A DNA stretch of 64,000 bases from an uncultured Candidatus Saccharibacteria bacterium. Lineage in GTDB: Bacteria; Patescibacteriota; Minisyncoccia; UBA6257. The position numbers and the translations under genes are program-made. The notes below the pieces were generated by a model, which was not told the origin of the DNA, ran no database searches, and saw only the letters and a list, made by a program, of their open reading frames with translations. How positions within the stretch are numbered: the stretch's first letter is position 1; each line of letters opens with the position of its first letter. Positions 3,089 through 55,701 of the stretch are shown piece by piece. The stretch spans positions 32,001-96,000 of the forward strand of contig CAYZJA010000002.1 in assembly GCA_964479005.1 (NCBI GenBank), written 5' to 3'.

Positions 3089-4630
3089 TTAACGGCTGGC
3101 TAATTCTTTAAGATAAGAAATATCCCTTTCATACCTATCAGCTATCGCCAGTACATTATCTCCGTAAAAACGATAACGTGTATTTGTGGATCCAGAAAAA
3201 TAAATCATCGCCGCGCGCCACTCTGCATCCCTTGTTTGTTTAGCTGCCCCCCATCTGGATAAATATAAAGCAGCGGCAACAAAAGCATCTCTAATATCCC
3301 AAGGATTAGCAGGATTATTACCTGTGATTTTACTCACCTTATCTTTGTAAATCATCCATGTTGAGGGGATAAATTGAGCCGGACCCATTGCTCCGCCCCA
3401 ACCAACCTGTTTTCCACTTCTAAACATTGGGCAGGAGACAGGAGTTGTGTTAGGATCTAATCCCAATTCCCTGCAAACTTGTAAAAATGGTTGTTGATCC
3501 CTGCTTGGTTTCATTATCTCTCTCCAGCTTTTACTCGGAGGATCCCCAGGACGGTTACAAGTTCCTACATTCTGTCCTAAATTAGATTCCTGAGTCAAAA
3601 TTGCTAAAAGAAAAGCTGGCCTTACTCCAGTACGACTACTTACCCAATTGGCTATTTCCAATGCTTCACCAAAAGTAACTTGAGTTTTTACCCCAATTAA
3701 CTGATAAATACGCGCTCTAATCTCATTCGCTTTTTGCCTTGATTCAGACAACATTTGCTGATACTTATCTTCGTTTCCATCAGTAATATGCCAAAGATCA
3801 ACTTTTTCACTCTCTGTTCTATTTAAATCATTTTTCTGGAGCAACTGCATTGCTAATAAGTTTTGAGTTTCATCCTTGTCACTGCTTAATTCTTGATTTT
3901 GCTTATTTAAAGTTAGCTTTAAGGCTTCAAGCTCTTCAATACTTTCTTGAATCCTTTCCTGAATATTATTAAGAGCATTGGAATAATCAAAAAACTCGCT
4001 TATTGTCCCTGACCCCAACAGTATTTCTAAGAGCGACACCTGCTTTAATTGATAAAAAGATTGTAAAGAATTTGTTAAATTTTCTTTTGTTGCCCCTACT
4101 TTATCAATAGTTTTAATAATAGAAGTTGTCGTTTCATCAATTCTTACATCAAGATATTGCAAATTGAGATTGGTAGATTTGATTTGAAGGCTTAATTTTG
4201 ACGCCCTGCTTCTTAATTCATTAATTTTATTTTGAAGGGTCTGCTTTTCCTGTTTTGTCGTAACTATTAATTTTTCATATTCGGCTATTTCTTTTTCAAC
4301 TGATGCTAACTCTTCCTCTAATTTAGCCCGCTCTTCATCATATAGAGCTTCTGCTTCTTTTGATTGAAAAAAGATTGGCGCTGTTACGCTGGATTGAATA
4401 ATGGAAAAAAGAAAAAAAGAAAAAATTAATAACGAAACAAATCTTTGTCTTGTTATTTTCGAACGAAGTGAAAAAACAAGGTTCTGCGGACAGAGTGCGC
4501 AGGTTCTTATTTTTTTCCCTTTAGAAAAAAAGGGTGGAATAAATATTTTTCTCTTGTTTTCTACAATTTCTTTTTTAAAAGGAAAGGAAATATCTTTAAC
4601 CTTCTTTCTAGAAATAGACTTAATAACCAT
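3089..4630 (-). CDS. Membrane-anchored coiled-coil protein with C-terminal lytic transglycosylase (MltB/Slt-like) domain
   Basis: 513 aa with an N-terminal TM helix and about 250 aa of heptad-like coiled coil. The C-terminus carries GWGGAMGPAQFIPSTW, an MltB-type lytic transglycosylase motif. The N-terminal 50 aa may be over-called because a conserved non-coding element overlaps 4474-4511. Confidence 0.6.
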   Translation of the reverse strand: MVIKSISRKKVKDISFPFKKEIVENKRKIFIPPFFSKGKKIRTCALCPQNLVFSLRSKITRQRFVSLLIFSFFLFSIIQSSVTAPIFFQSKEAEALYDEERAKLEEELASVEKEIAEYEKLIVTTKQEKQTLQNKINELRSRASKLSLQIKSTNLNLQYLDVRIDETTTSIIKTIDKVGATKENLTNSLQSFYQLKQVSLLEILLGSGTISEFFDYSNALNNIQERIQESIEELEALKLTLNKQNQELSSDKDETQNLLAMQLLQKNDLNRTESEKVDLWHITDGNEDKYQQMLSESRQKANEIRARIYQLIGVKTQVTFGEALEIANWVSSRTGVRPAFLLAILTQESNLGQNVGTCNRPGDPPSKSWREIMKPSRDQQPFLQVCRELGLDPNTTPVSCPMFRSGKQVGWGGAMGPAQFIPSTWMIYKDKVSKITGNNPANPWDIRDAFVAAALYLSRWGAAKQTRDAEWRAAMIYFSGSTNTRYRFYGDNVLAIADRYERDISYLKELASR

Positions 4631-8663: not shown

Positions 8664-9644
8664 TTAATTACAACTTGCATTCGCTCCAGCATTACTTTCT
8701 GTAGAACTATACGTAGGAGAAAAACTTGGGTTTGCCGATTCTGTGCTTAATGCTTCATCACAAAAATCTGGTTTATCCTGAAAAGCGCAGCAAACCACAG
8801 TTTTTACTGCTTCTGCTGTTCTTCCACCAAAATCAAATTCACTAATTTTATTTCCATCTAAAATCAAAGTCGGGGAACCTGTCACTCCATATATATTCTG
8901 ATTAGCAAAATCTTTTTCTGCATAAGCTAAGCCGCGATTTCCATCTGCTAAACAACCAGTTAATTTACTAACGTCAATTTGCGCTGCTTGTAAACAAAAA
9001 TCAACATCTCCTTCTTTAATATGGCAATCAATATATGCCCAAAAATTGTCTGATTGTTCTTCTCTCAAACAAATCTGACGTAAATTTTCTTGCGCCTCTT
9101 CATCACCATGCATTGCAGTAATTTTACCTCCCTCAATTGCGCCCATATACTCAACTTTAATATAAGGAGCTATTTGAGGCATATTTTTAACAATCTCATT
9201 TAAAATTCTTTGCATTTGCACGCCAAATGGACATTTACTAACAACAAATGCCTCTAAAACAGGTTCCTTTGTTTTATTAATATCCTCGCAAGTCATCTTC
9301 TCTCCTTCTGCAACTGCAGTATCTTCTTCTGGCTCCAATAAGCTAATTCCACTAGGAAAAAGAATTTTTCCATCTTTAGTCAAATACGAATCAAATTCCT
9401 CTTCATCAATTTTCATTTTAAATTTATAAACTCCACTTTCCTCAGACACAGAAACCAAAACAGCCTCAGCACCATCCAGCATATTTTCACTAACAAAATC
9501 AACAGCTTCTTGAACAGTTTCCTCCGCTTTTTGACTGCCAAAACCTCCAAACAATGCACCATCACTATTCATTTTGCCATACCCAATTAAAAATGCGGCA
9601 ATCATTAAGGTAATTAAAATCCAAGATAAATTTATTTTATTCAT
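8664..9644 (-). CDS. Secreted thioredoxin-fold/DsbA-like thiol-disulfide oxidoreductase
   Basis: 326 aa with a signal/TM anchor. It has a CPFG(V) motif in a DsbA-like domain, multiple Cys pairs and an S/T-rich C-terminus. Confidence 0.5.
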   Translation of the reverse strand: MNKINLSWILITLMIAAFLIGYGKMNSDGALFGGFGSQKAEETVQEAVDFVSENMLDGAEAVLVSVSEESGVYKFKMKIDEEEFDSYLTKDGKILFPSGISLLEPEEDTAVAEGEKMTCEDINKTKEPVLEAFVVSKCPFGVQMQRILNEIVKNMPQIAPYIKVEYMGAIEGGKITAMHGDEEAQENLRQICLREEQSDNFWAYIDCHIKEGDVDFCLQAAQIDVSKLTGCLADGNRGLAYAEKDFANQNIYGVTGSPTLILDGNKISEFDFGGRTAEAVKTVVCCAFQDKPDFCDEALSTESANPSFSPTYSSTESNAGANASCN

Positions 9645-11116: not shown

Positions 11117-11596
11117 ATGAAAAAGATTCTATTAAATACGGCATTAATTACTCTTCTCTTAATATTTTTGGCTCCTTCCTCTATTTTGGCTACTACTGTC
11201 AATGAATTCTTCACTAAAACAGGAGCAATAACTGAAATTCCTCCATCTTCAGGAAGTATTATTGACAAAGAAGGAAATGAGGTGCCAGCAGGGCGCTTTG
11301 TTCTTCAAGAATACGTACCTTGGTATCAAAGAATATTTGAAGAATTGTTGCAAATTCTAAGAATTTCAGAAAAACCAAAACACACATTCTCTATTTGGGC
11401 AGACGATGATTCTACTGATTTTCTAATTCAAGAAGCGGATAATAATTATAAAAAAGCTAGTTTTTCTGACTTAAAAATGAACGATAAAATAATTACTGAA
11501 GTAAGATATTGGACTACATATGGCACTGCTCCGCCACCTAAACATACAAATATACAGCATCACTACTCTGCTGAAAAAATAATAATAATAAAATAA
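11117..11596 (+). CDS. Secreted hypothetical protein
   Basis: 159 aa with an N-terminal signal peptide. No recognisable domain. Confidence 0.4.
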   Translation: MKKILLNTALITLLLIFLAPSSILATTVNEFFTKTGAITEIPPSSGSIIDKEGNEVPAGRFVLQEYVPWYQRIFEELLQILRISEKPKHTFSIWADDDSTDFLIQEADNNYKKASFSDLKMNDKIITEVRYWTTYGTAPPPKHTNIQHHYSAEKIIIIK

Positions 11597-11651: not shown

Positions 11652-14600
11652 TTATGGAATAGTAGTTGTGGTTACCTCTGGAACAATTGGCGGAATATTT
11701 ATAAAAATTATTTTAGGAATTTCTGATTTTAACCCTTCACTGTCTTGAGCTTTGATACCAAAAAACACATCAAGGGAAACACCAGGTAATCTTTTCTTTT
11801 CTATATAACGTAAATCATCGATAGATACTTGAAGTCGAAGTTTATTTTCTTGAGCATTCAAAGTTGGTTCCCCTAAAACATTTTGAGATTGAGAGTATCT
11901 CCATGATTGTCGTGTTAAATCGTTGTTCTCTGAACCATCTCCTTGTTTGGCAAAAACATAATGAATATCATATTTTAAAATATCTTTTGGATCTTCATCC
12001 GAAGCTGGCGTCCAAGAAAAAATTAAATTATTACAATCTTCATTATCGCATTCCACTTCAAAATTTTTGACATTAGTTGGTTGATGATAATAATTTGAGG
12101 AATAAAAATAAAATTTAGTATCATCATAAGCAATTAATTTCAAATAAGACCGAATATTTTTAGCATATCCATAATAACCAATTGTTATATATTGATCAGG
12201 AGTAAAATTTAAACCTTGACCATGAGTAGTCCCTATAACATCAACAACAAAATGATTATCGCTAGATAATTTGTCTATTCTATAGGATAGTTTTCTCGGA
12301 ACAGCAGAGCCAGCTGCCATTTTTTCATCAGCAGTGAAAATTATACTTCCTACTTTTTGAGTATCACCAACATAATTAGGATAAGATAATAATAATCCAG
12401 GAGTATTGCTATATAATTCCCAGTCATTTTTACCACCTAAATAACCTGTTGGAATGCCAAAATTTGCTGAAGGATCATCAAAATCTGAGTGGAGATAGAA
12501 CACCATCGCCGTAAAAATATTGCTCGTATGATTTGTTGAAGGAATAAAAGGATAAGAATTAATTCTAAAATCAATTACTATTTTGGGAGAATCTTTCTCA
12601 AAAGGATGCCAAGAAAATTCAGTAATATAAGGTATTGTCGGCGCTGCAGGAGTAGTGGTTGTTGGGATGAAACAATCATTAGAAGAAAAACTTTTGGGAC
12701 TGGGACAATTTTGAATTTCAAAATCATCGGCATTATTATCAGAGTCCAAAAAATTACCATCTATATACTTTCTTTGAATGCTTTGACTTGGTTCAGGATT
12801 TATCGCGCAATTAACCTCACAATCATTTGCTTCTCCATAACCAATTTTATCTACTATTTCTCTATTGGGATTCTTTAGAATAATAGTATTATTATTAGTA
12901 AGACTATAATTAGAGACTAAAACATCGGCTATCTCTGTATAAGTACTTGAAGAATGAGTAATCAATAAATATCCAAAGGAACTAATAACTTTTTCTGCTA
13001 ACAAATGAGCTGGTACTAAAGAAGAAAATTCTTGACTATTTTGGGTTTTCTTTTGAATATACCAATCAGTTAAATCTACATCATTATCATTGGGATTATA
13101 AAGTTCTATAAATTCATCTTTTGTAAGAGTTTTTGCCTCAGAGTCCAACCCAGCAATTTTTATCTCATTAATTAGAATTTTAGGAAAAACAATGGGGGGT
13201 AATGTTGTTGTTGTAGTAGTAGTAGTTGTTGTTGTAGTAGTAGTTTGCGAAGATGGAGTTGAACCCCCTCCGCCGCCTGAAGAAATAATCACAGGTTGAC
13301 TATTCTCCCTTTTGGGTGTGCCCAAAATACCATTTTGTTCTACACCACCATAGGTATGCCATGATAAATTATTGCCTCTTTCCATTGTCCGTTTTTGAGA
13401 ATTATTTCCTGCTGACCAATCCAAATCAGCTAAAACTTCATCTTGAAGCTGACAATTACTATCAAATAAACGAAGTCCTTCATCAGCATTATTAAGGACC
13501 CCTGCATAAATATGATCTGCAATCACAAAAGGAATAGAACTATCATCTGTTCTTTCCAAAAGATAAAAACCATGAGCAGCTATTTTACTGCCTTGCTCAA
13601 AAACAATTTTAATTTGTTCTTTTTTATCTATTAGCTGCCAATTAGAAATATCTATTTCATGTGAAGAAATATTTTTTAATTCTATCCACTCGTCATTGGC
13701 ACTATTTTGGGTTCCCATCCAAGCTAGTTCACTAATAATTATTTTATTTCTTAATGTGGCTTGGGTAGTATTAAAAGAACAAAAATTGGGGCTAAGAGTA
13801 GTTGTTGTGGTTAGTTTAGTTGTTGTAGTAGTTGGTTTGGTAGTGGTGACAGTGAGTTTGGTAGTTGTTGTAAATAACTTAGTAGTAGTCGTGGTTTGTT
13901 TAGTAATGGTTGGTGATTTGGTAGTAGAAGGTTGATATTTTATTGTGGTGGTTGTGGTAATTTGGGAAAGAGTAGTCGGAGAAAAAGATAAGCTGGTGTC
14001 TGAAGCATCTGGGGGACTATGTGGAATTTCTGTTTCTTCAATCAAAACATATTCGGGATTTCTTTGAAAAATATCATTAATAAAATCAGAAAGACCACTT
14101 ATCATAGCTGTCAACACATTTTTTTCATTCTTTGATATAAAATCAGGCTTAGATTTTGCCCTTGCAACTTCTTGAAAAAATAAATCAATAACTCCAGCAC
14201 CAGTTAAAACTACCCTTTTAGAAAGCCTTTCCCAGTACTCCTGAAGAACTTGATCATCTTCTAATGAAAAAATCGTGGGGCCGGAAGTTAATCGCCATCC
14301 TATATTATTTTTTAAAATAAGCGCTAAATGAAAAATATTATGGTTTTCGTCTTCTCCTAGTACATAGAAAATTAATTTTCCATTTATTAACTCAGGTACT
14401 TCAGAAAAAACAGGCTGCGGCAATTTATATTTTGAACCCGAAATCGTATCGGGACTATAAAAGTAATTATTAGAATAAAGAGCAATTTCATCAAAATATT
14501 CGTCAAGGTTAACCCTTCTAACAGGTTTCAGATTTTCGATACTCTTTCGTGTTTGTTCGTAAAAATCTTTATTATTTTTAGCTGTATAGGATTCATAAGG

Positions 14601-15164
14601 ACTGCCTGTATTTGGTATAAAAAATATATGGACATTCTGTCTTGTATGCTCTGGCACACTCATATCCTGAATCAAATGTAAAATATGGCCGAGGGCCTTA
14701 AAGGCTTCAACTCGATTTCCTTTTACATACTTATAAATAGCCTGTTGCCAAGTAAAATTAGTCTTGGAAAAAACTGGACTTTTAGCTATTGGACCAATAA
14801 GAACTGAATAAATAGGATCGTAGACAGCTTGAGCAAAAGGGTTCTGCCCCCACTCTTTAGCAGTTAAAACCGGAAAAAGATGTTCTACTCCCCCAAACTG
14901 CCAAGTTTTATTAAAAACTGGATCATAAAAATGATTTACGCTTCTAACACCATCATCCTCATCAATGCTGCCTTGCATTAAAAGTTGTTTTTCTGTTTCA
15001 TTCAAGGCATGATTTAAAAAGTGTTGATTATAAAAGTCAACAGTAATTTCTGTTAAATTTGGATGTGTAGTTTTAGCATCGTAAGCAAGAACAGAAAAAT
15101 TAGGTAAAAAGAATAAACATACAAATAAACATACAAATAAAAAACTGGTGGGGCTTTTTCTCAT
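11652..15164 (-). CDS. Giant secreted/surface protein: PLC/P1-nuclease-superfamily-like N-domain, Thr-rich linkers, two lamin-tail (LTD) domains
   Basis: 1170 aa with a signal peptide. HILHLIQDMSVPEH resembles the zinc-ligand motif HxxGDxxxPxH of S1/P1 nuclease and phospholipase C. Poly-Thr/TTTTK linkers are present. Two LTD-like segments are EWIELKN...ISNWQL and EFIELYNPNDNDVDLTDWYI. Confidence 0.6.
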   Translation of the reverse strand: MRKSPTSFLFVCLFVCLFFLPNFSVLAYDAKTTHPNLTEITVDFYNQHFLNHALNETEKQLLMQGSIDEDDGVRSVNHFYDPVFNKTWQFGGVEHLFPVLTAKEWGQNPFAQAVYDPIYSVLIGPIAKSPVFSKTNFTWQQAIYKYVKGNRVEAFKALGHILHLIQDMSVPEHTRQNVHIFFIPNTGSPYESYTAKNNKDFYEQTRKSIENLKPVRRVNLDEYFDEIALYSNNYFYSPDTISGSKYKLPQPVFSEVPELINGKLIFYVLGEDENHNIFHLALILKNNIGWRLTSGPTIFSLEDDQVLQEYWERLSKRVVLTGAGVIDLFFQEVARAKSKPDFISKNEKNVLTAMISGLSDFINDIFQRNPEYVLIEETEIPHSPPDASDTSLSFSPTTLSQITTTTTIKYQPSTTKSPTITKQTTTTTKLFTTTTKLTVTTTKPTTTTTKLTTTTTLSPNFCSFNTTQATLRNKIIISELAWMGTQNSANDEWIELKNISSHEIDISNWQLIDKKEQIKIVFEQGSKIAAHGFYLLERTDDSSIPFVIADHIYAGVLNNADEGLRLFDSNCQLQDEVLADLDWSAGNNSQKRTMERGNNLSWHTYGGVEQNGILGTPKRENSQPVIISSGGGGGSTPSSQTTTTTTTTTTTTTTLPPIVFPKILINEIKIAGLDSEAKTLTKDEFIELYNPNDNDVDLTDWYIQKKTQNSQEFSSLVPAHLLAEKVISSFGYLLITHSSSTYTEIADVLVSNYSLTNNNTIILKNPNREIVDKIGYGEANDCEVNCAINPEPSQSIQRKYIDGNFLDSDNNADDFEIQNCPSPKSFSSNDCFIPTTTTPAAPTIPYITEFSWHPFEKDSPKIVIDFRINSYPFIPSTNHTSNIFTAMVFYLHSDFDDPSANFGIPTGYLGGKNDWELYSNTPGLLLSYPNYVGDTQKVGSIIFTADEKMAAGSAVPRKLSYRIDKLSSDNHFVVDVIGTTHGQGLNFTPDQYITIGYYGYAKNIRSYLKLIAYDDTKFYFYSSNYYHQPTNVKNFEVECDNEDCNNLIFSWTPASDEDPKDILKYDIHYVFAKQGDGSENNDLTRQSWRYSQSQNVLGEPTLNAQENKLRLQVSIDDLRYIEKKRLPGVSLDVFFGIKAQDSEGLKSEIPKIIFINIPPIVPEVTTTTIP

Positions 15165-15212: not shown

Positions 15213-15758
15213 TTAAAATTCTATTATTTTCCAAATATTAGAAATTGGTTCCTTTTCTGCTGCAACAAGGTTCAATGGTATTTTTAAGACAGCCTGAGCA
15301 ATTAGATAATTCTCAGTATTATAGACACGAATAACATATGTGTTATTTTCTTTCATTTCCCCTTCCTGGTTATCAGGATTGAATAAGTCTTCAATCATTT
15401 CATTCCATTTATTATTATTTTTGATATCAGTAAAAAATTGCTTATATTCTTCCTGCTTATCTAAAATAAAATACTTACTCGCCAAACCAATGTCCTCCAT
15501 TTTTAAAGCCTGTAAAAACATTCCGTATGTTTCTTCTGGCGTTTCTCCACCATAAGTATCAGCTGCGTATTCTTCTACCTGTTCTTGAATTTTTCTAGCC
15601 AAAATCTCTGCATCTTTTTTATATTGTCGAGCTTGCCGTACTTCTGCGCTAAAATACCAAACTAACCAACTTGTAGTTAATCCTAAAATTAAAAAAATAA
15701 CAAAAATGGAAATATACCGTGATTTAAAAAATTTTATATTTTTTTTCCTATGTTTCAT
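15213..15758 (-). CDS. Membrane-anchored hypothetical protein
   Basis: 181 aa with a single N-terminal TM helix. Confidence 0.4.
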   Translation of the reverse strand: MKHRKKNIKFFKSRYISIFVIFLILGLTTSWLVWYFSAEVRQARQYKKDAEILARKIQEQVEEYAADTYGGETPEETYGMFLQALKMEDIGLASKYFILDKQEEYKQFFTDIKNNNKWNEMIEDLFNPDNQEGEMKENNTYVIRVYNTENYLIAQAVLKIPLNLVAAEKEPISNIWKIIEF

Positions 15759-33820: not shown

Positions 33821-35611
33821 TTATTCTTTTTTGAACTCCTCTTTAGCTTTCCTAATATCTATAAGTTGAGCTGGGTTTGAGGTAATAATTTGGTCTTCAG
33901 CATAAGAAGCGATAATCTGAATGGCAGCATGTTTGTCTTCTGCAAAAAAGAGACCTGTGCCAACAGAAGCTTGCAAAAGGATGGTTTTTTCTTGTTCTGT
34001 AAGATTTAAGGCTTTGCCTATGATATCAATATTCGCAGGCGACTGTCTTAGTAAAAGGGCTAAAGCAGAGTTGGTAATTAATGGTTTTCCATAAGGTGAT
34101 TTTAAAGCGTCTTCTATGTCCTGTGTAATAAAGGTTACTCCCATATAATACTTTCGCGCTCTTTTAACTAAACCAAAAAGAAAAGACGCGCTTTCTTCGT
34201 GGCGTAACAACCACCATCCTTCATCAATTATTACAACCCTTTTTCTTAAATCCTTTTTTATCATTGTCCATATGTAATTTAATACTACATACATGGCAAT
34301 AGGCCTAAGTTCTTCTTCTAATTCTCTTACGCCAAAGATAACTAAACGATTGTTAATATTAATATTCGATGGTTGATTAAGGAAGCCAGCATAGCTTCCT
34401 TTGGTGAATTTATAAAGTTTTGCAGCTAAATCTTCGCCTCCCTCGGTATTTTTAAGAACATTCTCTAGATCTTCCATTAATGGCAGATTTTTTTTCTCAA
34501 CCATATTTTCAGGAAAAATATCCCGACTTGCGTATGTTTGTACAATGGCTCTATCTAGCATAAGTTCTTCCTGAGGAGAAAGACCTTTAAGCATTAACTT
34601 AATTAGGCCAATAAGATTTAAAATATGGTTGCGAAAAACTTCTTCGCCAGTTTCCTCTTTTTTTACTGTAGGAAGTTCAAATGGATTAATATTATCATCA
34701 GAAGCAACAGATATTTTAAAGTAGCTTCCGCCAATTGAATCAGCCAAGTATTCATACTCATTTTCCGGATCAATAATCAATACATTAGTTCCTAGTAATA
34801 ATGAACGAAGGATTTCTAATTTTATAGCATAACTTTTTCCTGCGCCAGCTTGGGCAAAAACTATCATATTTGCGTTTGGTAGAACAAAGCGGTCAAAAAT
34901 AATCAAGCTATTATTATGCAGATTAACGCCATAAAGGATTCCTTTGTTTTCTGAAAGGTCTAAAGAAGAAAAAGGGAAAAGGGTTGAAGCCGGCTGTGAA
35001 TTTAAGGGAGTAGTTAATAATAATCTATCTATTCCCAATGGTAAGGAAGATTCCATTCCTTCGAATTCTCTAAAGACAGTTGGTTTTGCGTAAATTAACT
35101 GCTGCTCTAATACATTTTTGATTTTACTTTCTATTTTTATAAGTTCCTCCTTGTCATTGGCAAAAAAAGTGATATAAACACCTACTTCAAAAAGTTTTTC
35201 ACTACCTTGTTGGATAGTATCTCTTAGTTTTTCAATATTATTTAAAGCAGCTTCTAATAAGGGGTTACGAACTAATCCTCTATCTGCTTCAATGCTTAAT
35301 TGAGCTTGAATTTCTGCAGATTTTTTTCTTAAATTTCTTAAAACCTTATTAATATTAAGAGGGTGGAAAAAGATTGAAATATTAAAAGATTCATCCAAAT
35401 TAATAATTGAGGAAAACCAATTAGAGGCTAAATAATTTGGATAAGTTAGGATAAAAAGAGTTGAACAATATTTATTTCCTAATTTGAGAAAGTTAGTATT
35501 AATTTCTAATCCAGCAGGGGAAATTAAGTCCTGAAGAGTAGAAACAGCCTGGGATTGCGCTACCACTTGCGGGTTTTTAGGTTTTCTTTTAAATAAGTTT
35601 GGAAAACGCAT
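33821..35611 (-). CDS. VirB4/TrbE/CagE-family conjugal-transfer-type ATPase (C-terminal ATPase portion)
   Basis: 596 aa with Walker A (AQAGAGKS) and Walker B (VVIIDEGWW). It is followed in the cluster by PrgI-like and VirB6-like proteins. Confidence 0.75.
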   Translation of the reverse strand: MRFPNLFKRKPKNPQVVAQSQAVSTLQDLISPAGLEINTNFLKLGNKYCSTLFILTYPNYLASNWFSSIINLDESFNISIFFHPLNINKVLRNLRKKSAEIQAQLSIEADRGLVRNPLLEAALNNIEKLRDTIQQGSEKLFEVGVYITFFANDKEELIKIESKIKNVLEQQLIYAKPTVFREFEGMESSLPLGIDRLLLTTPLNSQPASTLFPFSSLDLSENKGILYGVNLHNNSLIIFDRFVLPNANMIVFAQAGAGKSYAIKLEILRSLLLGTNVLIIDPENEYEYLADSIGGSYFKISVASDDNINPFELPTVKKEETGEEVFRNHILNLIGLIKLMLKGLSPQEELMLDRAIVQTYASRDIFPENMVEKKNLPLMEDLENVLKNTEGGEDLAAKLYKFTKGSYAGFLNQPSNININNRLVIFGVRELEEELRPIAMYVVLNYIWTMIKKDLRKRVVIIDEGWWLLRHEESASFLFGLVKRARKYYMGVTFITQDIEDALKSPYGKPLITNSALALLLRQSPANIDIIGKALNLTEQEKTILLQASVGTGLFFAEDKHAAIQIIASYAEDQIITSNPAQLIDIRKAKEEFKKE

Positions 35612-37603: not shown

Positions 37604-39820
37604 TTAAAAAGGCAAAAATTCTGCCAAGAAACGATTTTTGTCGTATTTTCTTCTTTTGAGCTCTTGTTTAACAGTTTCTTCATTTCCGTGGATTTTGTCT
37701 TGGACAGATTTTACAAGTTTTTGTGCCCATTTTGTTTGTTTTTCAGTATCATTTGTTGACCTAAGCATAGCAGCAAAATTTCCAGCTGGAAGATTTTTAT
37801 CTAAAAGAGTATAGAAAAATCGATTGGTATGCTGTGGTCCTTTTTCTTCTAATCTTTCAAGAATGTTTTCCCAATTACCTAATTTTATATCATCAGGCGA
37901 AGATTTTAGCAGTTGTTCTGCTATAAGATTAGTGATAACACGATTTTTAGCTTCATCACGAGAGACTCCATGGAATCTTCGCTTCATCTGTTCTATTGCT
38001 TTGTCCATATCTTCAGGTTTTGTAAAGTATTTAGCATGAAGTTCTGGATGAATTTTTTTAATTCCTGAAACATTTAAATTAGGTTGATTTTTAGCTATTT
38101 CGATGAACTTGCTATCTTTTTTATAATCCAGTGATTCTTTTCCTATTAATGTGTTAACACCCAAAGCCATTCTTCCCCCATCTGTCTTATGTGCTTCCAT
38201 ATCAACTCTAATTTGATCTGGGCTTCTTCCTTTATAATCTTCTTCAATTTGTTTTAGTTCAGCTTCGCGAACTTTCCTAGGCTGCCTACCCATCCAAACC
38301 CCTATGTCATGTGTAGGCGCAAATTTGCTGTCTTCTAATTTTTTCTGAGCTTTTCTCCATGGTTCTGAGCTTACGGCTCCTTTTAATGCTTTATGACCAA
38401 GGAAGGCGCCAGCTACTGCTCCAGCCTTAGTAGTTTGTTTCATAACTAATTGAGATGCTGCTCCTCCGCTTTGGAGGGAGAAAATTAATCCTCCTACCAA
38501 AAACATAGAGAATAAAATCATTTGCACTATTGTTGAAGTTACAGAGTCTGCGCCGATTGATATTTGACTCATTCCACTCATTGCTATTATAGCAATATAC
38601 AGTATAAAACTAAAAATAACAGGAAAAAAACACCATTTTATAAATTGTTGCCACCACATTTTCCAATATTTTTCTGTATCTGGGAAAATCCAACAAGCAA
38701 AAACGATAGGGGATAAACCTAGAAGCATAATTAAAATGAATGCTCTGAAAATTATTGTCAAGAAAATAGCAAGCAAAGCAATAACAGCAAAACCTCCAAC
38801 CAATATCATTATAAAGCTGATTATGAAAAAGTTACCAAAACGTAGGCTATAACTCTCTACTTCCGTTGCTGCTGTTGTAGTTGCTGTACCAGTATCTCCA
38901 AGACCTAGAATTTTTGGCGTTTCATATTTATCCTCGCCAAATAAAACAGGAGGATCAAATGTTTTTGTATCCGCTGATTGTTGTTCTTGTTCAATATAAC
39001 TAAAACTTTCCATTATACGAGGGGCAAGGCTTTCATTTTTTTCTTGAGCAATGTTTAGAAAATATACTGAGAGATAATTAGAAGTATCTACTATGATTCC
39101 TGATATAACTAAACTGAAGTTTACTAACAAAGCAACAAGTATTAATTTCCAAAGGATTTGTTTCCAAGCATATTTTTTATAACCAAGAATAGTTGCGATA
39201 GCAATACCTATTAACCCTAAAACTAAAAGTGCGTTAACTAAATTGCGCATCATTTCCCATATTTGTATAACACCATCATTTGTAGCAAATCCGCCATAAG
39301 TTTTCGGATTTAACGCTTTTAATATCCAGCCTATTTCTAAATCTATTAATCCAGCAAACATTTTACCCAAACCTTCAAGTATGGCTTTTGTAGTAACACA
39401 CCACATGTCTGCAATCACTACTTTTATTTCGCATCCAAGCGCATCTAACCCCCAACCATACCTCGCTGCGCATTCCTGCATTCCCTCTTCAAAGTTCTTC
39501 TTACAAAGACCTTCTGGCCTTTCTTCTTGAAGTCTGGTTTTTATTGTCTGTGCTCCATGTCTTATCTCTGTTGTCCCAGGTTCAGGATTTGGAATACAAC
39601 ATTGCTCACTACCAAATCCAGGACAACTCAAAGAAGATTCAATGTAATCTTCTAAATCACTACATTTTGTTGTCTTTTTAACAACACATGTACCTCCTGC
39701 TTCTTCGCAGTCAGACCCAGCTCTTACTTGTGAAATATCAGTTTTTAAAACAGGGCTGATTAGTAATGTAAGAATAACTATGCTAAAAACCCCAATTTTT
39801 AATATATTTTTTGTTTTCAT
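37604..39820 (-). CDS. VirB6/TrbL-like polytopic membrane protein with N-terminal Cys-rich extracellular domain and C-terminal soluble domain
   Basis: 738 aa. A signal peptide is followed by a Cys-rich region with about 8 Cys, at least 6 TM helices in the middle and a soluble C-terminal 250 aa. Confidence 0.5.
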   Translation of the reverse strand: MKTKNILKIGVFSIVILTLLISPVLKTDISQVRAGSDCEEAGGTCVVKKTTKCSDLEDYIESSLSCPGFGSEQCCIPNPEPGTTEIRHGAQTIKTRLQEERPEGLCKKNFEEGMQECAARYGWGLDALGCEIKVVIADMWCVTTKAILEGLGKMFAGLIDLEIGWILKALNPKTYGGFATNDGVIQIWEMMRNLVNALLVLGLIGIAIATILGYKKYAWKQILWKLILVALLVNFSLVISGIIVDTSNYLSVYFLNIAQEKNESLAPRIMESFSYIEQEQQSADTKTFDPPVLFGEDKYETPKILGLGDTGTATTTAATEVESYSLRFGNFFIISFIMILVGGFAVIALLAIFLTIIFRAFILIMLLGLSPIVFACWIFPDTEKYWKMWWQQFIKWCFFPVIFSFILYIAIIAMSGMSQISIGADSVTSTIVQMILFSMFLVGGLIFSLQSGGAASQLVMKQTTKAGAVAGAFLGHKALKGAVSSEPWRKAQKKLEDSKFAPTHDIGVWMGRQPRKVREAELKQIEEDYKGRSPDQIRVDMEAHKTDGGRMALGVNTLIGKESLDYKKDSKFIEIAKNQPNLNVSGIKKIHPELHAKYFTKPEDMDKAIEQMKRRFHGVSRDEAKNRVITNLIAEQLLKSSPDDIKLGNWENILERLEEKGPQHTNRFFYTLLDKNLPAGNFAAMLRSTNDTEKQTKWAQKLVKSVQDKIHGNEETVKQELKRRKYDKNRFLAEFLPF

Positions 39821-54534: not shown

Positions 54535-55701
54535 ATGCCCAAAGTAAAATGTAGAGTTTGCAAAAAGATATTCTATATCAAATCCAATTGGCTTAAAAGA
54601 GGATGGGGAAAATATTGTTCGAGGAAATGTCAGTACAAATCCCAATTGAAAGGAAAATTTGTGGTTTGCGCCTATTGCGGTAGAAGGGTATATCGATCAC
54701 TTGCTGAATTGCGCAGAAAATCTAAGGCAGGAGTTTATTTTTGTAATTTATCCTGTCATTGCGCTTGGAAAAATAAACAAAGGAAAAGTAAGGGAAGATT
54801 TAAATTACAAAATTTATGGGGACCGTGGTGTAATAGTAGCACTAGGACCTGTGGCGTCCTCGGTACGGATGCAAATTCCGTCGGTCCCCCATTTTTCTTT
54901 CTAAAATTCTTAAAGCCCAAGAAGAAAAAAAATAATCTTTTATTTCTTAAGCGGCCACCAAAGAAAATTCTTTATCATTTTTATTGGAAAAAGAATTATA
55001 CCCAAACAGAGATAGCTAAAATTTTTAATGCCACCCACACTAGCGTGAAAAGATGGTTTAATTATTATAAAATCATGGTGAAGTACCGAACTCTATCTTG
55101 TGGCCATAATCCCAATATTTTAAGAAATTTAAAATTAGGTCGTACAGATAAAGCTATTAGAAAATCGGCAGAAGCAAGAAGAATTTATTCAAAAGAAAAA
55201 CTTATTGAAAAAATAAAAGAATTTGTACAAAAAGAAGAAAGAATTCCTACAAAGAACGAATTTATTAATAATTCCTCTTATCCAGATTATGTCACTTACA
55301 GGCATTATTTTGGCACTTGGAATAATGCCATCAAGACAGCGGGCTACAAGCCAAATGAACAATGGTTTGCCTCAGGACATTTATTTGCTAAAGATGGGCA
55401 CAAATGTAATTCAATTTCAGAAATAATCATTGACGATTGGTTTTTTGAAAATGATATTTCTCATACGAGAGAGTGTTTATACCCAGAAGGACGATATCGC
55501 TGTGATTTTATGGTTGGCAATACTTTTATTGAATTTTTTGGTTTATTTAATGCTTCCATTGTTAACCCAAGTTATATTGAAATCGTTAAAAGAAAAAAAG
55601 AAATATGTAAGAAATTTAATATTGTCCTCATTGAACTCTATGAGAAGGATCTTTATAAATTAGATCAATCCTTGGGAGCAAAGATTGGATTAAAAGTATA
55701 A
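54535..55701 (+). CDS. Composite ORF: N-terminal double Zn-ribbon, HTH, HNH-repeat (homing-endonuclease-associated) and DUF559/Vsr-like PD-(D/E)xK nuclease region
   Basis: 388 aa. The CxxC..CxxxC repeat occurs twice. The other elements are an HTH (TQTEIAKIFNATHTSVKRW), an HNH-repeat-like motif (YVTYRHYFGTWNNAIKTAGY) and a C-terminal S.SE....DDW...N..H..E...P.G.YR.DF.V......IEF.G. The ORF reads through an embedded tRNA-His-like gene at 54818-54891 and a poly-A tract, so the true CDS boundaries are uncertain and it may be a fragmented gene. Confidence 0.4.
   Translation: MPKVKCRVCKKIFYIKSNWLKRGWGKYCSRKCQYKSQLKGKFVVCAYCGRRVYRSLAELRRKSKAGVYFCNLSCHCAWKNKQRKSKGRFKLQNLWGPWCNSSTRTCGVLGTDANSVGPPFFFLKFLKPKKKKNNLLFLKRPPKKILYHFYWKKNYTQTEIAKIFNATHTSVKRWFNYYKIMVKYRTLSCGHNPNILRNLKLGRTDKAIRKSAEARRIYSKEKLIEKIKEFVQKEERIPTKNEFINNSSYPDYVTYRHYFGTWNNAIKTAGYKPNEQWFASGHLFAKDGHKCNSISEIIIDDWFFENDISHTRECLYPEGRYRCDFMVGNTFIEFFGLFNASIVNPSYIEIVKRKKEICKKFNIVLIELYEKDLYKLDQSLGAKIGLKV
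54818..54891 (+). tRNA. tRNA-His-like gene (anticodon GTG) with encoded G-1:C73
   Basis: Hand-folded. G-1 is followed by the acceptor GGGACCG/CGGTCCC and discriminator C. The D-arm is GTGT..GCAC, the anticodon stem-loop is AGGAC-CTGTGGC-GTCCT and the T-arm is ACGGA-TGCAAAT-TCCGT. It is oriented opposite to the neighbouring tRNAs and lies inside the predicted ORF. Confidence 0.6.

What the first reader, a model, noticed from the sequence alone, without database searches (positions are those of the whole stretch)
11652..15164. 1170-aa secreted protein combining a PLC/P1-nuclease-like zinc domain with two lamin-tail domains
The N-terminal domain has HILHLIQDMSVPEH, which matches the H-x-x-(G)D-x-x-x-P-x-H zinc-ligand motif of S1/P1 nucleases and zinc phospholipase C. 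Long poly-Thr linkers follow, and then two LTD-like segments (…EWIELKN…, …EFIELYNPND…DLTDW…). LTDs are commonly attached to extracellular nucleases and phosphatases. An organism with reduced nucleotide biosynthesis could use this as a surface nuclease for nucleotide scavenging or host DNA/RNA degradation.
Basis: partly seen in the sequence, partly recalled or inferred. Interest (0 to 1): 0.6.

Follow-up and report, generated by a model that had tools for sequence, protein, structure and literature searches.

The report
Secreted zinc phosphodiesterase with membrane partner
An ultra-small, host-dependent (Patescibacteria) bacterium encodes a large exported protein whose tip is a three-zinc enzyme of the phospholipase C / P1-nuclease type, always paired with a small membrane-anchored partner gene; this widespread, unannotated module probably scavenges nucleic acids or lipids.

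Summary
ORF 11652-15164 (-) is real and 1170 aa long. It has a cleavable signal peptide, a PLC/P1-fold N-domain, Thr-rich linkers and two bona fide LTDs.

The N-domain fails Pfam's Zn_dep_PLPC cut-off on its own (14.6 vs 26.8 bits). Family and structure evidence are decisive:
- Eight of nine zinc-ligand positions are conserved in 269-272 of 272 relatives.
- The ninth (PLC H142) is never His. An invariant H179 probably replaces it.

The domain is closer to PLC than to S1/P1 nucleases, so "nuclease" is plausible but unproven. DNA-related fusions in relatives favour it (ComEA-type HHH, SNase). Homology favours a phospholipase.

- The family is large: 7168 representative clusters and at least 561 GTDB species. 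All 80 best loci are labelled Patescibacteria (two by their bins as Legionellaceae/Gammaproteobacteria).
- Databases label members only as "lamin tail domain-containing" or hypothetical.
- The C-terminus is FN3-like.
- A small membrane-anchored NTF2-like gene (15213-15758) sits directly upstream in 87 of 87 evaluable loci, so this is a conserved two-gene module.

I rate it a new variant of a known kind, with moderately high interest.

The parts
11652..15164 (-). Whole CDS, 1170 aa: exported multidomain protein
   Evidence: ORF list. Collinear full-length orthologues at 72/72/65/46/45% identity in L009, L010, L011, L015 and L016.
15084..15164 (-). Signal peptide, aa 1-27, predicted cleavage VLA|Y28
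   Evidence: Basic n-region, hydrophobic core and a -3/-1 V-x-A site. In 160 relatives position -1 is A/S/G and -3 is V/I/A/S, followed by Y/W/F. No signal-peptide predictor was available.
14130..15083 (-). Catalytic domain, aa 28-345: PLC/P1-nuclease fold. Putative trinuclear zinc site: Y28 (N-terminus), H34, D70, H78, H163, D167, H173, H179(?), E191. Includes a beta-sheet insertion at aa ~253-300.
13791..14129 (-). Low-confidence helix (aa 346-385) plus Thr-rich linker 1 (aa 386-458), with 7-aa TTTTKLx-type repeats
   Evidence: pLDDT below 50 after aa 362. 48% Thr. 21-nt tandem repeat at 13797-13905.
13434..13751 (-). Lamin-tail domain 1 (aa 472-577)
   Evidence: PF00932 at 53.4 bits against a cut-off of 34.3.
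13185..13304 (-). Gly/Ser/Thr-rich linker 2 (aa 621-660, with a run of 14 Thr)
   Evidence: Composition. Trinucleotide and 21-nt repeats at 13203-13245.
12834..13181 (-). Lamin-tail domain 2 (aa 662-777)
   Evidence: PF00932 at 58.8 bits.
12084..12641 (-). Beta-rich region of unknown fold (aa 842-1027), conserved only in close relatives
   Evidence: Only 4 homologues in 5.8 billion proteins. No Pfam hit. AF2 pLDDT below 50. Conserved in L001 and in L009-L016 orthologues.
11679..12083 (-). FN3-like beta-sandwich (aa ~1028-1162), followed by a short Thr-rich C-terminus with no membrane anchor
   Evidence: AF2 pLDDT 80-91 for this part. Foldseek best hits are tandem FN3 domains: DCC, neogenin, insulin receptor, gp130 (E down to 4.5e-6). 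No Pfam fn3 hit.
15213..15758 (-). Partner gene, 181 aa: N-terminal TM helix plus an extracytoplasmic NTF2-like (DUF4878-like) domain. It ends 48 nt upstream of the enzyme's ATG.
   Evidence: A homologous gene lies directly upstream on the same strand in 87/87 evaluable loci. Weak DUF4878 hits in 5/7 members and de novo NTF2 hits in the PDB. No terminator-like site lies between the two genes, while one lies just upstream of the pair at 15798-15778.

Best explanation
The locus is a conserved two-gene surface module of Patescibacteria.

Gene 2 (11652-15164) is exported by the Sec pathway. Signal peptidase cuts after Ala27, so Tyr28 becomes residue 1. The free amine and carbonyl of Tyr28, together with H34, D70, H78, H163, D167, H173, E191 and (inferred) H179, build a trinuclear zinc centre like that of B. 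cereus PC-PLC and P1 nuclease. This makes the N-domain a phosphodiester hydrolase.

Thr-rich stalks, two Ig-like lamin-tail domains, a beta-rich region and an FN3-like domain form an extended, unanchored arm. The arm binds polymeric substrate or surfaces.

Gene 1 (15213-15758) is a type-II membrane protein with an outward-facing NTF2-like domain. I infer that it docks or restrains the enzyme at the cell's own surface.

The most likely job is extracellular hydrolysis of polyanionic phosphodiester substrates, with nucleic acids favoured, to feed an auxotrophic episymbiont.

Shown: the fold, ligand conservation, the LTDs, the gene pairing, and the family's size and restriction to this group.
Inferred: zinc binding, signal-peptide cleavage, the role of H179, the partner's role, and the substrate.

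For: Ligands: the global hhalign maps D70=D55, H78=H69, H163=H118, D167=D122, H173=H128 and E191=E146. Across 272 domains the counts are Y28 aromatic 272, H34 271, D70 272, H78 272, H163 272, D167 272, H173 269, H179 272 and E191 272.

Cleavage: a signal-peptidase site directly precedes the aromatic residue in 158/160 relatives. This mirrors Trp1 of PLC and P1.

Accessory domains: LTD occurs in 67/85 scanned relatives.

DNA-related fusions: ComEA-type HHH_3 is fused in at least 3 relatives (E to 2e-22) and SNase in 2 (E 9.5e-17), and no lipid-binding partner was seen.

Literature: LTD and HhH are recurrent accessory domains of secreted DNases (PMC4486849, PMC6085458, PMC8289736).

Active-site residues: R74 and R175 flank metal ligands and are invariant (271 and 272 of 272). 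P1 nuclease has R48 three residues after D45, whereas BcPLC has no Arg there (sequences verified).

Gene pairing: 87/87 evaluable loci, often with overlapping stop and start.

Biology: Patescibacteria lack nucleotide and lipid synthesis (PMC11665869).
Against: No activity, metal content or localisation has been measured.

The DNA-related fusions are rare, about 5% of the members scanned. They could simply combine different hydrolases on one surface scaffold.

The most common partners besides LTD (beta-helix/NosD, Ig, PKD, beta-propeller) are not DNA-specific.

All domains, including the LTDs, are acidic (pI 4.6-5.9), so there is no electrostatic hint of DNA binding.

The His equivalent to PLC H142 is missing.

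The window's own protein does not reach the Pfam gathering score for PF00882.
Confidence: 0.45

Rival explanations
1. It is a genuine zinc phospholipase C. The exported enzyme cleaves head groups from host (or neighbour) membrane phospholipids, either to breach the host envelope or to harvest diacylglycerol for a bacterium that cannot make lipids. The membrane-anchored NTF2-like partner would be an immunity protein protecting the producer's own membrane, or a lipid acceptor.
For: The closest relatives by every measure are BcPLC, Listeria PlcB and clostridial alpha-toxin. The HFYDP motif and the last helix (AGVIDLFF vs AGYIQLWF) are PLC-like. PF00882 is the only catalytic Pfam family hit across the family (21/29 members). 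An outward-facing membrane-anchored partner fits an envelope-directed activity. [quoted passage not shown]
Against: The BcPLC head-group pocket residues E4, Y56 and F66 correspond to K31, D71 and S75 here and are not conserved (alignments; the E4 mapping is by position only). No membrane-binding module of the PLAT/C2 type was seen in 85 relatives, whereas HHH_3 and SNase fusions occur. Two invariant arginines next to ligands are unlike BcPLC. Sequence identity to PLCs is only 13-20%.
Confidence: 0.3
2. It is a phosphodiesterase acting on phosphodiester-linked envelope polymers, such as teichoic acids or phosphoglycans of the host or of its own wall. The beta-helix, Ig and LTD modules would act as glycan-binding arms.
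For: Beta_helix/NosD domains occur in 23/85 relatives. Ig-like, PKD and beta-propeller partners are typical of glycan-binding surface proteins. The invariant arginines suit a polyanionic substrate. An SLT lytic transglycosylase and other envelope genes lie in the window.
Against: No member of the PLC/P1 superfamily is known to me to act on teichoic acids. The window's own protein has no beta-helix. There is no direct evidence.
Confidence: 0.1
3. It is a non-catalytic adhesin or stalk protein in which the PLC-like domain serves only as a binding head.
For: The architecture is long and modular, with Thr-rich linkers and Ig-like domains. The canonical H142 ligand is lost.
Against: Eight ligand positions plus H179, E69, R74 and R175 are conserved in 269-272 of 272 sequences, at overall identities down to about 25%. 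That pattern indicates a maintained active site.
Confidence: 0.05

Closest known systems
Bacillus cereus PC-PLC (1ah7), Listeria PlcB (8cqm) and Clostridium alpha-toxin N-domain (1olp/1ca1): zinc phospholipases C, Pfam PF00882
   Different: Sequence identity is 13-20%. Residue 1 is Tyr rather than Trp. The H142 equivalent is absent and invariant H179 appears eight positions earlier. There is a roughly 50-aa beta-sheet insertion. R74 and R175 are invariant. The head-group pocket is not conserved. The domain is fused to LTDs and a long stalk. It has an obligate NTF2-like partner gene. It scores below the PF00882 gathering score.
S1/P1 nucleases (P1 1ak0, S1 5fb9, SmNuc1 8qjl, AtBFN2 3w52), including the surface 3'-nucleotidase/nucleases of purine-auxotrophic trypanosomatids (the latter from my own knowledge)
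   Different: There is no PF02265 hit for this protein. hhalign probability is only 5%, limited to the central motif. The motif is HFYDP rather than HFID. Structural similarity is clearly lower than to PLC.
LTD-bearing secreted nucleases such as Shewanella ExeM (LTD + OB + EEP), and DNaseI-family enzymes with LTD or duplicate HhH
   Same: A secreted hydrolase combined with LTD (and, in some relatives of this family, ComEA-type HhH) as accessory modules (PMC6085458, PMC4486849, PMC8289736).
   Different: The catalytic domain is unrelated (EEP/DNaseI vs the PLC/P1 fold). In ExeM the LTD is N-terminal and the protein has a C-terminal hydrophobic anchor. No NTF2-like partner is described for these enzymes.

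Membership tests
PLC/P1-nuclease superfamily (Pfam clan PhosC-NucP1) | All-alpha fold superimposable on PLC and S1/P1 structures | tested here: met
PLC/P1-nuclease superfamily (Pfam clan PhosC-NucP1) | Central H-x3-D-x3-P-x-H ligand motif | tested here: met
   H163, D167, P171 and H173. Across 272 domains the counts are 272, 272, 271 and 269.
PLC/P1-nuclease superfamily (Pfam clan PhosC-NucP1) | Early His, Asp and HF(Y/W/I)D His ligands (BcPLC H14, D55, H69) | tested here: met
   H34 271/272, D70 272/272, H78 272/272. hhalign pairs D70=D55 and H78=H69. H34=H14 is assigned by position only.
PLC/P1-nuclease superfamily (Pfam clan PhosC-NucP1) | Aromatic residue 1 of the mature chain, whose amine and carbonyl bind zinc | tested here: inconclusive
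   Y/W/F lies 5-6 residues before the His in 158/160 relatives, preceded by an A/S/G (-1) and V/I/A/S (-3) site. Cleavage itself is predicted, not shown. The residue is Tyr rather than Trp.
PLC/P1-nuclease superfamily (Pfam clan PhosC-NucP1) | Third-zinc His plus acid pair (BcPLC H142/E146; P1 H149/D153) | tested here: inconclusive
   E191=E146 is invariant. The H142-equivalent column (G187) is never His in 272 sequences.
PLC/P1-nuclease superfamily (Pfam clan PhosC-NucP1) | Binds three zinc ions | not testable with these tools
   Needs metal analysis or a crystal structure.
Pfam PF00882 Zn_dep_PLPC | Score at or above the gathering threshold (26.8 bits) | tested here: not met
   14.6 bits for the full protein and 16.8 bits for the N-domain. 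Of the relatives, 21/29 hit at E<=0.1, but only one of those listed (P0011, 32.7 bits) exceeds the cut-off.
Pfam PF00882 Zn_dep_PLPC | Phospholipid head-group pocket (BcPLC E4, Y56, F66; from my knowledge of the BcPLC structures) | tested here: not met
   The corresponding residues are K31, D71 and S75. The columns are variable or differ across the family. The alignment of the first 30 residues is by position only.
Pfam PF00882 Zn_dep_PLPC | Phospholipase C activity | not testable with these tools
   Needs an enzyme assay.
Pfam PF02265 S1-P1_nuclease | Profile match to the family | tested here: not met
   No hit for this protein. One relative of 29 hits at E 0.064. hhalign to P1 nuclease gives 5% probability over 21 columns.
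Pfam PF02265 S1-P1_nuclease | Nuclease or 3'-nucleotidase activity | not testable with these tools
   Only indirect support: HHH_3 and SNase fusions in relatives.
Pfam PF00932 Lamin Tail Domain | Profile match above the gathering threshold (34.3 bits), two copies | tested here: met
   aa 472-577 at 53.4 bits and aa 662-777 at 58.8 bits.
Fibronectin type III-like domain (C-terminus) | Seven-strand beta-sandwich matching FN3 structures | tested here: inconclusive
   Foldseek top hits are FN3 tandems (E 4.5e-6). The model is confident only for aa ~1028-1162, and Pfam fn3 does not hit.
NTF2-like / DUF4878 (partner gene 15213-15758) | Profile match to the family | tested here: inconclusive
   5 of 7 orthologues hit PF12870 weakly (best E 7.3e-4). 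The window's copy does not hit. PDB profile hits to de novo NTF2 proteins have E 0.19-0.36.

The most novel reading that the evidence does not exclude
The enzyme and its NTF2-like partner form a lipid-harvesting device common across Patescibacteria. The PLC-type head cleaves host phospholipids. The membrane-anchored NTF2-like cone, a fold that typically holds hydrophobic ligands, then receives the diacylglycerol and feeds it into the symbiont's own membrane. That would be the missing lipid-acquisition route of these bacteria.
Probability: 0.12. Interest if true: 0.85.

Novelty: new variant of a known kind. Interest (0 to 1): 0.6.

Why it matters
Patescibacteria make up a large share of bacterial diversity. 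They cannot make nucleotides or lipids, and how they obtain them is an open question. [quoted passage not shown]

This work identifies a very widespread, strictly paired, exported enzyme module. Current annotation labels it only "lamin tail domain-containing protein" or "hypothetical". Its catalytic head can now be assigned to the trinuclear-zinc phosphodiesterase superfamily.

That gives a concrete candidate for nutrient scavenging or host attack that can be expressed and tested. It also provides a new sequence family with an unusual ligand set (N-terminal Tyr, relocated His) for enzymologists working on the PLC/P1 fold.

Tried and rejected
- **Single-sequence search against the PDB:** it gave only spurious hits through the signal peptide.
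- **NCBIfam:** no hit.
- **Model coordinates:** I looked for them to measure ligand distances, but they are not exposed to the script environment. The role of H179 therefore stays inferred.
- **Global hhalign to P1 nuclease:** it produced a meaningless alignment.
- **Charge and pI of the domains:** I computed these as a DNA-binding hint, but they are uninformative. Every domain is acidic, as is P1 nuclease itself.
- **C-terminal 329 aa:** there are only four close homologues and no Pfam hit. The AF2 model is poor (pLDDT 55) except for the last ~135 aa.
- **Gene neighbourhood beyond the partner:** it is housekeeping (S16, GyrB, TyrRS, GAPDH, PheRS) and differs between genomes, so it gives no functional clue.
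- **Promoter and terminator scan:** counts are at background level. It showed only that no terminator-like site lies between the two genes.
- **Literature searches:** "Candidate Phyla Radiation" + "phospholipase C", PF00882, "lamin tail domain" + ComEA, and CPR + "lamin tail" found no description of this family.
- **Assembly artefact or pseudogene (rejected):** collinear orthologues of the whole 1170 aa exist.
- **Split version in L001/L002:** this looks like a disrupted copy. The second ORF starts with TTG and has no signal peptide.
Full report
**1. Observation**

The ORF at 11652..15164 on the minus strand exists as described: ATG start, 1170 codons.
- HILHLIQDMSVPEH at aa 160-173.
- DEWIELKN at aa 491-498.
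- EFIELYNPND...DLTDW at aa 684-701.
- Two Thr-rich linkers: aa 386-458 (48% Thr) and aa 621-660 (38% Thr, including a run of 14 Thr).

The window has about 32% G+C. Its gene content is ordinary chromosomal content of a small-genome bacterium: GyrB, S16, TyrRS, PheRS, GAPDH, FtsK, PBP1 and a VirB4-like ATPase.

**2. Domain tests on the single protein**

Pfam finds LTD twice (E 3.5e-28). Each copy alone exceeds the gathering score: 53.4 and 58.8 bits against 34.3. Zn_dep_PLPC is hit only below threshold, at 14.6 bits for the whole protein and 16.8 bits for the N-domain against 26.8. NCBIfam finds nothing. A single-sequence PDB search finds nothing meaningful.

**3. Family evidence for the N-domain**

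A search with aa 1-379 returned 35 relatives. Almost all named ones are Patescibacteria MAG proteins.
- Scanned one by one, 21 of 29 hit PF00882 (best 8.7e-8). Only one touches S1-P1_nuclease, at E 0.064.
- A profile of the family hits only zinc phospholipases C in the PDB (BcPLC, Listeria PlcB; E about 0.02).
- hhalign gives 92% probability to BcPLC and 5% to P1 nuclease. Both reference sequences were verified as exact copies of 1ah7 and 1ak0.

An AlphaFold model built on the family alignment is good (pTM 0.82).
- Next come S1 nuclease (13.4), SmNuc1 (12.9) and AtBFN2 (12.6).
- Nothing else scores above 5.3. Foldseek gives the same order.

The domain therefore has the PLC/P1-nuclease fold and sits on the PLC side of that superfamily. 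Relative to PLC it carries a four-stranded beta insertion (aa ~253-300).

**4. The metal site**

Alignments pair the ligands as follows:

| This protein | BcPLC |
|---|---|
| D70 | D55 |
| H78 (NHFYDP) | H69 (SHFYDP) |
| H163 | H118 |
| D167 | D122 |
| H173 | H128 |
| E191 (SPYE) | E146 (SKYE) |

H34 corresponds by position to H14 of PLC and H6 of P1.

I aligned 272 N-domains to the family HMM. The counts are:
- Y28: 264 Y, 6 W, 2 F.
- H34: 271.
- D70, H78, H163, D167, E191: 272 each.
- H173: 269.

The column equivalent to PLC H142 (G187 here) is never His. An extra His, H179, is invariant (272/272), and so are E69 and R175. R74 is present in 271.

I infer that H179 has taken over as the third ligand of the third zinc.

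**5. Export and the N-terminal ligand**

The N-terminus has a basic n-region, a strongly hydrophobic core and a V-L-A site before Tyr28. In 160 relatives with intact N-termini:
- An aromatic residue lies 6 (131 cases) or 5 (27 cases) residues before the invariant His.
- It is preceded by A/S/G at -1 and V/I/A/S at -3.

This is the arrangement of PLC and P1 nuclease, where Trp1 of the mature chain binds zinc through its amine and carbonyl. That point is established knowledge of those structures. Cleavage here is predicted, not shown.

The protein has no C-terminal hydrophobic anchor. Its ten cysteines include closely spaced pairs in the exported part, which fits an extracytoplasmic location.

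**6. The rest of the protein**

After LTD2 comes a roughly 330-aa region with only four close homologues in the large protein collection and no Pfam match. Its last ~135 aa model confidently as a beta-sandwich, and their best structural matches are FN3 tandems. The preceding ~185 aa remain unassigned.

Full-length collinear orthologues exist at 72, 72, 65, 46 and 45% identity, so the whole architecture is real and conserved in a clade.

In one relative (L001/L002) the gene is interrupted by a stop after the catalytic domain. The second ORF there has no signal peptide, so this is probably a disrupted copy.

**7. Size, distribution and partners of the family**

An exhaustive profile search finds 7168 representative clusters at E<=1e-3 and 1036 at E<=1e-30. 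Most of the best 150 are 1100-1700 aa long, with the domain at the N-terminus.

The 80 best loci all come from MAGs. Nearly all are labelled Patescibacteria or one of its groups: Paceibacterota, Parcubacteria, Minisyncoccia, Yanofsky-, Wolfe-, Sung- and Nomurabacteria and others, some labelled Saccharibacteria by their pipeline. Two bins carry Legionellaceae or Gammaproteobacteria labels.

Domain partners in 85 scanned members:

| Partner | Members |
|---|---|
| LTD | 67 |
| Beta_helix | 23 |
| NosD | 17 |
| Ig-like, PKD, beta-propeller, fn3 | several each |
| ComEA-type HHH_3 | at least 3 (E to 2e-22; includes one member scanned separately) |
| SNase | 2 (E 9.5e-17, plus the truncated P0034 with the DGDT...GIDTPE signature) |

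The HHH_3 and SNase cases are documented. No lipid-binding module was seen.

Public records call these proteins "lamin tail domain-containing protein" or "hypothetical protein". I found no paper describing the family.

**8. A conserved partner gene**

The 181-aa ORF at 15213..15758 lies 48 nt upstream on the same strand. It has one N-terminal TM helix with a basic cytoplasmic tip and a ~135-aa outward domain.

A homologous gene lies directly upstream in all eight loci first examined. With an HMM of it, I also found it in 79 of the 80 genome loci. The one exception has only 27 nt of upstream sequence. That gives 87 of 87 evaluable loci, often with overlapping or nearly abutting reading frames.

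The partner gives weak DUF4878 hits (5 of 7 members) and weak hits to designed NTF2 proteins, so it is probably NTF2-like. No terminator-like hairpin lies between the two genes, while one precedes the pair.

Only the catalytic domain is present in every member of the family. From that I infer that the partner acts on, or binds to, that domain as an anchor or as an inhibitor. This is inference only.

**9. Mechanism and substrate**

These points are firm:
- A Sec-exported protein.
- A PLC/P1-fold head with a fully maintained ligand set.
- Ig-like accessory domains on flexible Thr-rich stalks.
- An obligate membrane partner.

The chemistry, zinc-activated water attacking a phosphodiester, follows from the superfamily. 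The substrate is open.
- **Homology** points to phospholipids.
- **Recurrent DNA-related fusions** point to nucleic acids, as does the literature showing LTD and HhH as accessory modules of secreted DNases (PMC4486849, PMC6085458, PMC8289736).
- **Two invariant arginines beside ligands** also point to nucleic acids or another polyanion. P1 nuclease has R48 near D45, and BcPLC has none.
- **The BcPLC head-group pocket** is not conserved.

I favour nucleic acid (about 0.45) over phospholipid (about 0.3), with envelope polymers and a non-catalytic role as minor rivals. Both main options suit an organism lacking nucleotide and lipid synthesis (PMC11665869).

**10. Comparison, novelty and score**

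The domain belongs to the PLC/P1 superfamily. It should not be filed as a PF00882 member, because it scores below the gathering threshold, or as an S1/P1 nuclease, because there is no profile match. It is best described as a new, large family on the PLC side with these distinguishing features:
- N-terminal Tyr instead of Trp.
- A relocated third-zinc His.
- A beta insertion.
- Near-obligate LTD fusion.
- An obligate NTF2-like membrane partner.

I rate it a new variant of a known kind, with interest 0.6. The fold assignment itself is not surprising. What makes it a concrete handle on how these bacteria feed on their surroundings or hosts is its ubiquity among the Patescibacteria genomes sampled, its strict gene pairing and its lack of annotation.

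Noticed in passing
window 15213-15758 (-): A 181-aa membrane-anchored NTF2-like (DUF4878-like) protein lies immediately upstream of the enzyme gene. A homologue is found directly upstream in 87/87 evaluable loci of the family, often with overlapping frames.
   Followed up: yes
L001 6001-9521 and L002 4900-8948: In a syntenic relative (S16 ... TyrRS context) the gene is split by a stop codon after the catalytic domain. The second ORF (808 or 984 aa, TTG start) has no signal peptide. This is a likely pseudogene or an assembly error in the repeat-rich linker.
   Followed up: partly
window 13797-13905 and 13203-13245: The linker-coding DNA is tandemly repeated: a 21-nt period x5.2 giving TTTTKLx heptads, and ACN/Thr codon runs. 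Orthologues differ in length mainly in these regions, which suggests repeat-driven variation in stalk length.
   Followed up: partly
window 15112-15141: A perfect 12-nt tandem repeat (2.5 copies) lies inside the signal-peptide coding region and produces the LFVCLFVCLF hydrophobic core.
   Followed up: no
P0101, P0140, P0160, P0034 (relatives, not in the window): Some family members insert a ComEA-type HHH_3 DNA-binding domain after the LTD, or a staphylococcal-nuclease domain after the PLC-like head.
   Followed up: yes
window 8664-9644 (-): An exported 326-aa protein gives a weak GILT (thiol reductase) hit. A gene with a faint GILT hit and a glutaredoxin-like gene lie in the corresponding downstream region of L001. 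It may be an extracytoplasmic disulfide oxidoreductase.
   Followed up: no
window 11117-11596 (+): A 159-aa ORF with a clear signal peptide and no Pfam match lies convergent to the enzyme gene.
   Followed up: no
window 33821-35611 (-) and 37604-39820 (-): A VirB4/TraG-like type IV secretion ATPase lies close to a 738-aa protein with no Pfam match.
   Followed up: no
window 3089-4630 (-): A 513-aa protein with an SLT_2 lytic transglycosylase domain, the enzyme class proposed to breach host envelopes in Patescibacteria.
   Followed up: no
window 54535-55701 (+) and 54819-54890 (+): The mechanically listed 388-aa ORF contains a tRNA-His gene on the same strand. The true CDS, if any, must start downstream of the tRNA.
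   Followed up: no
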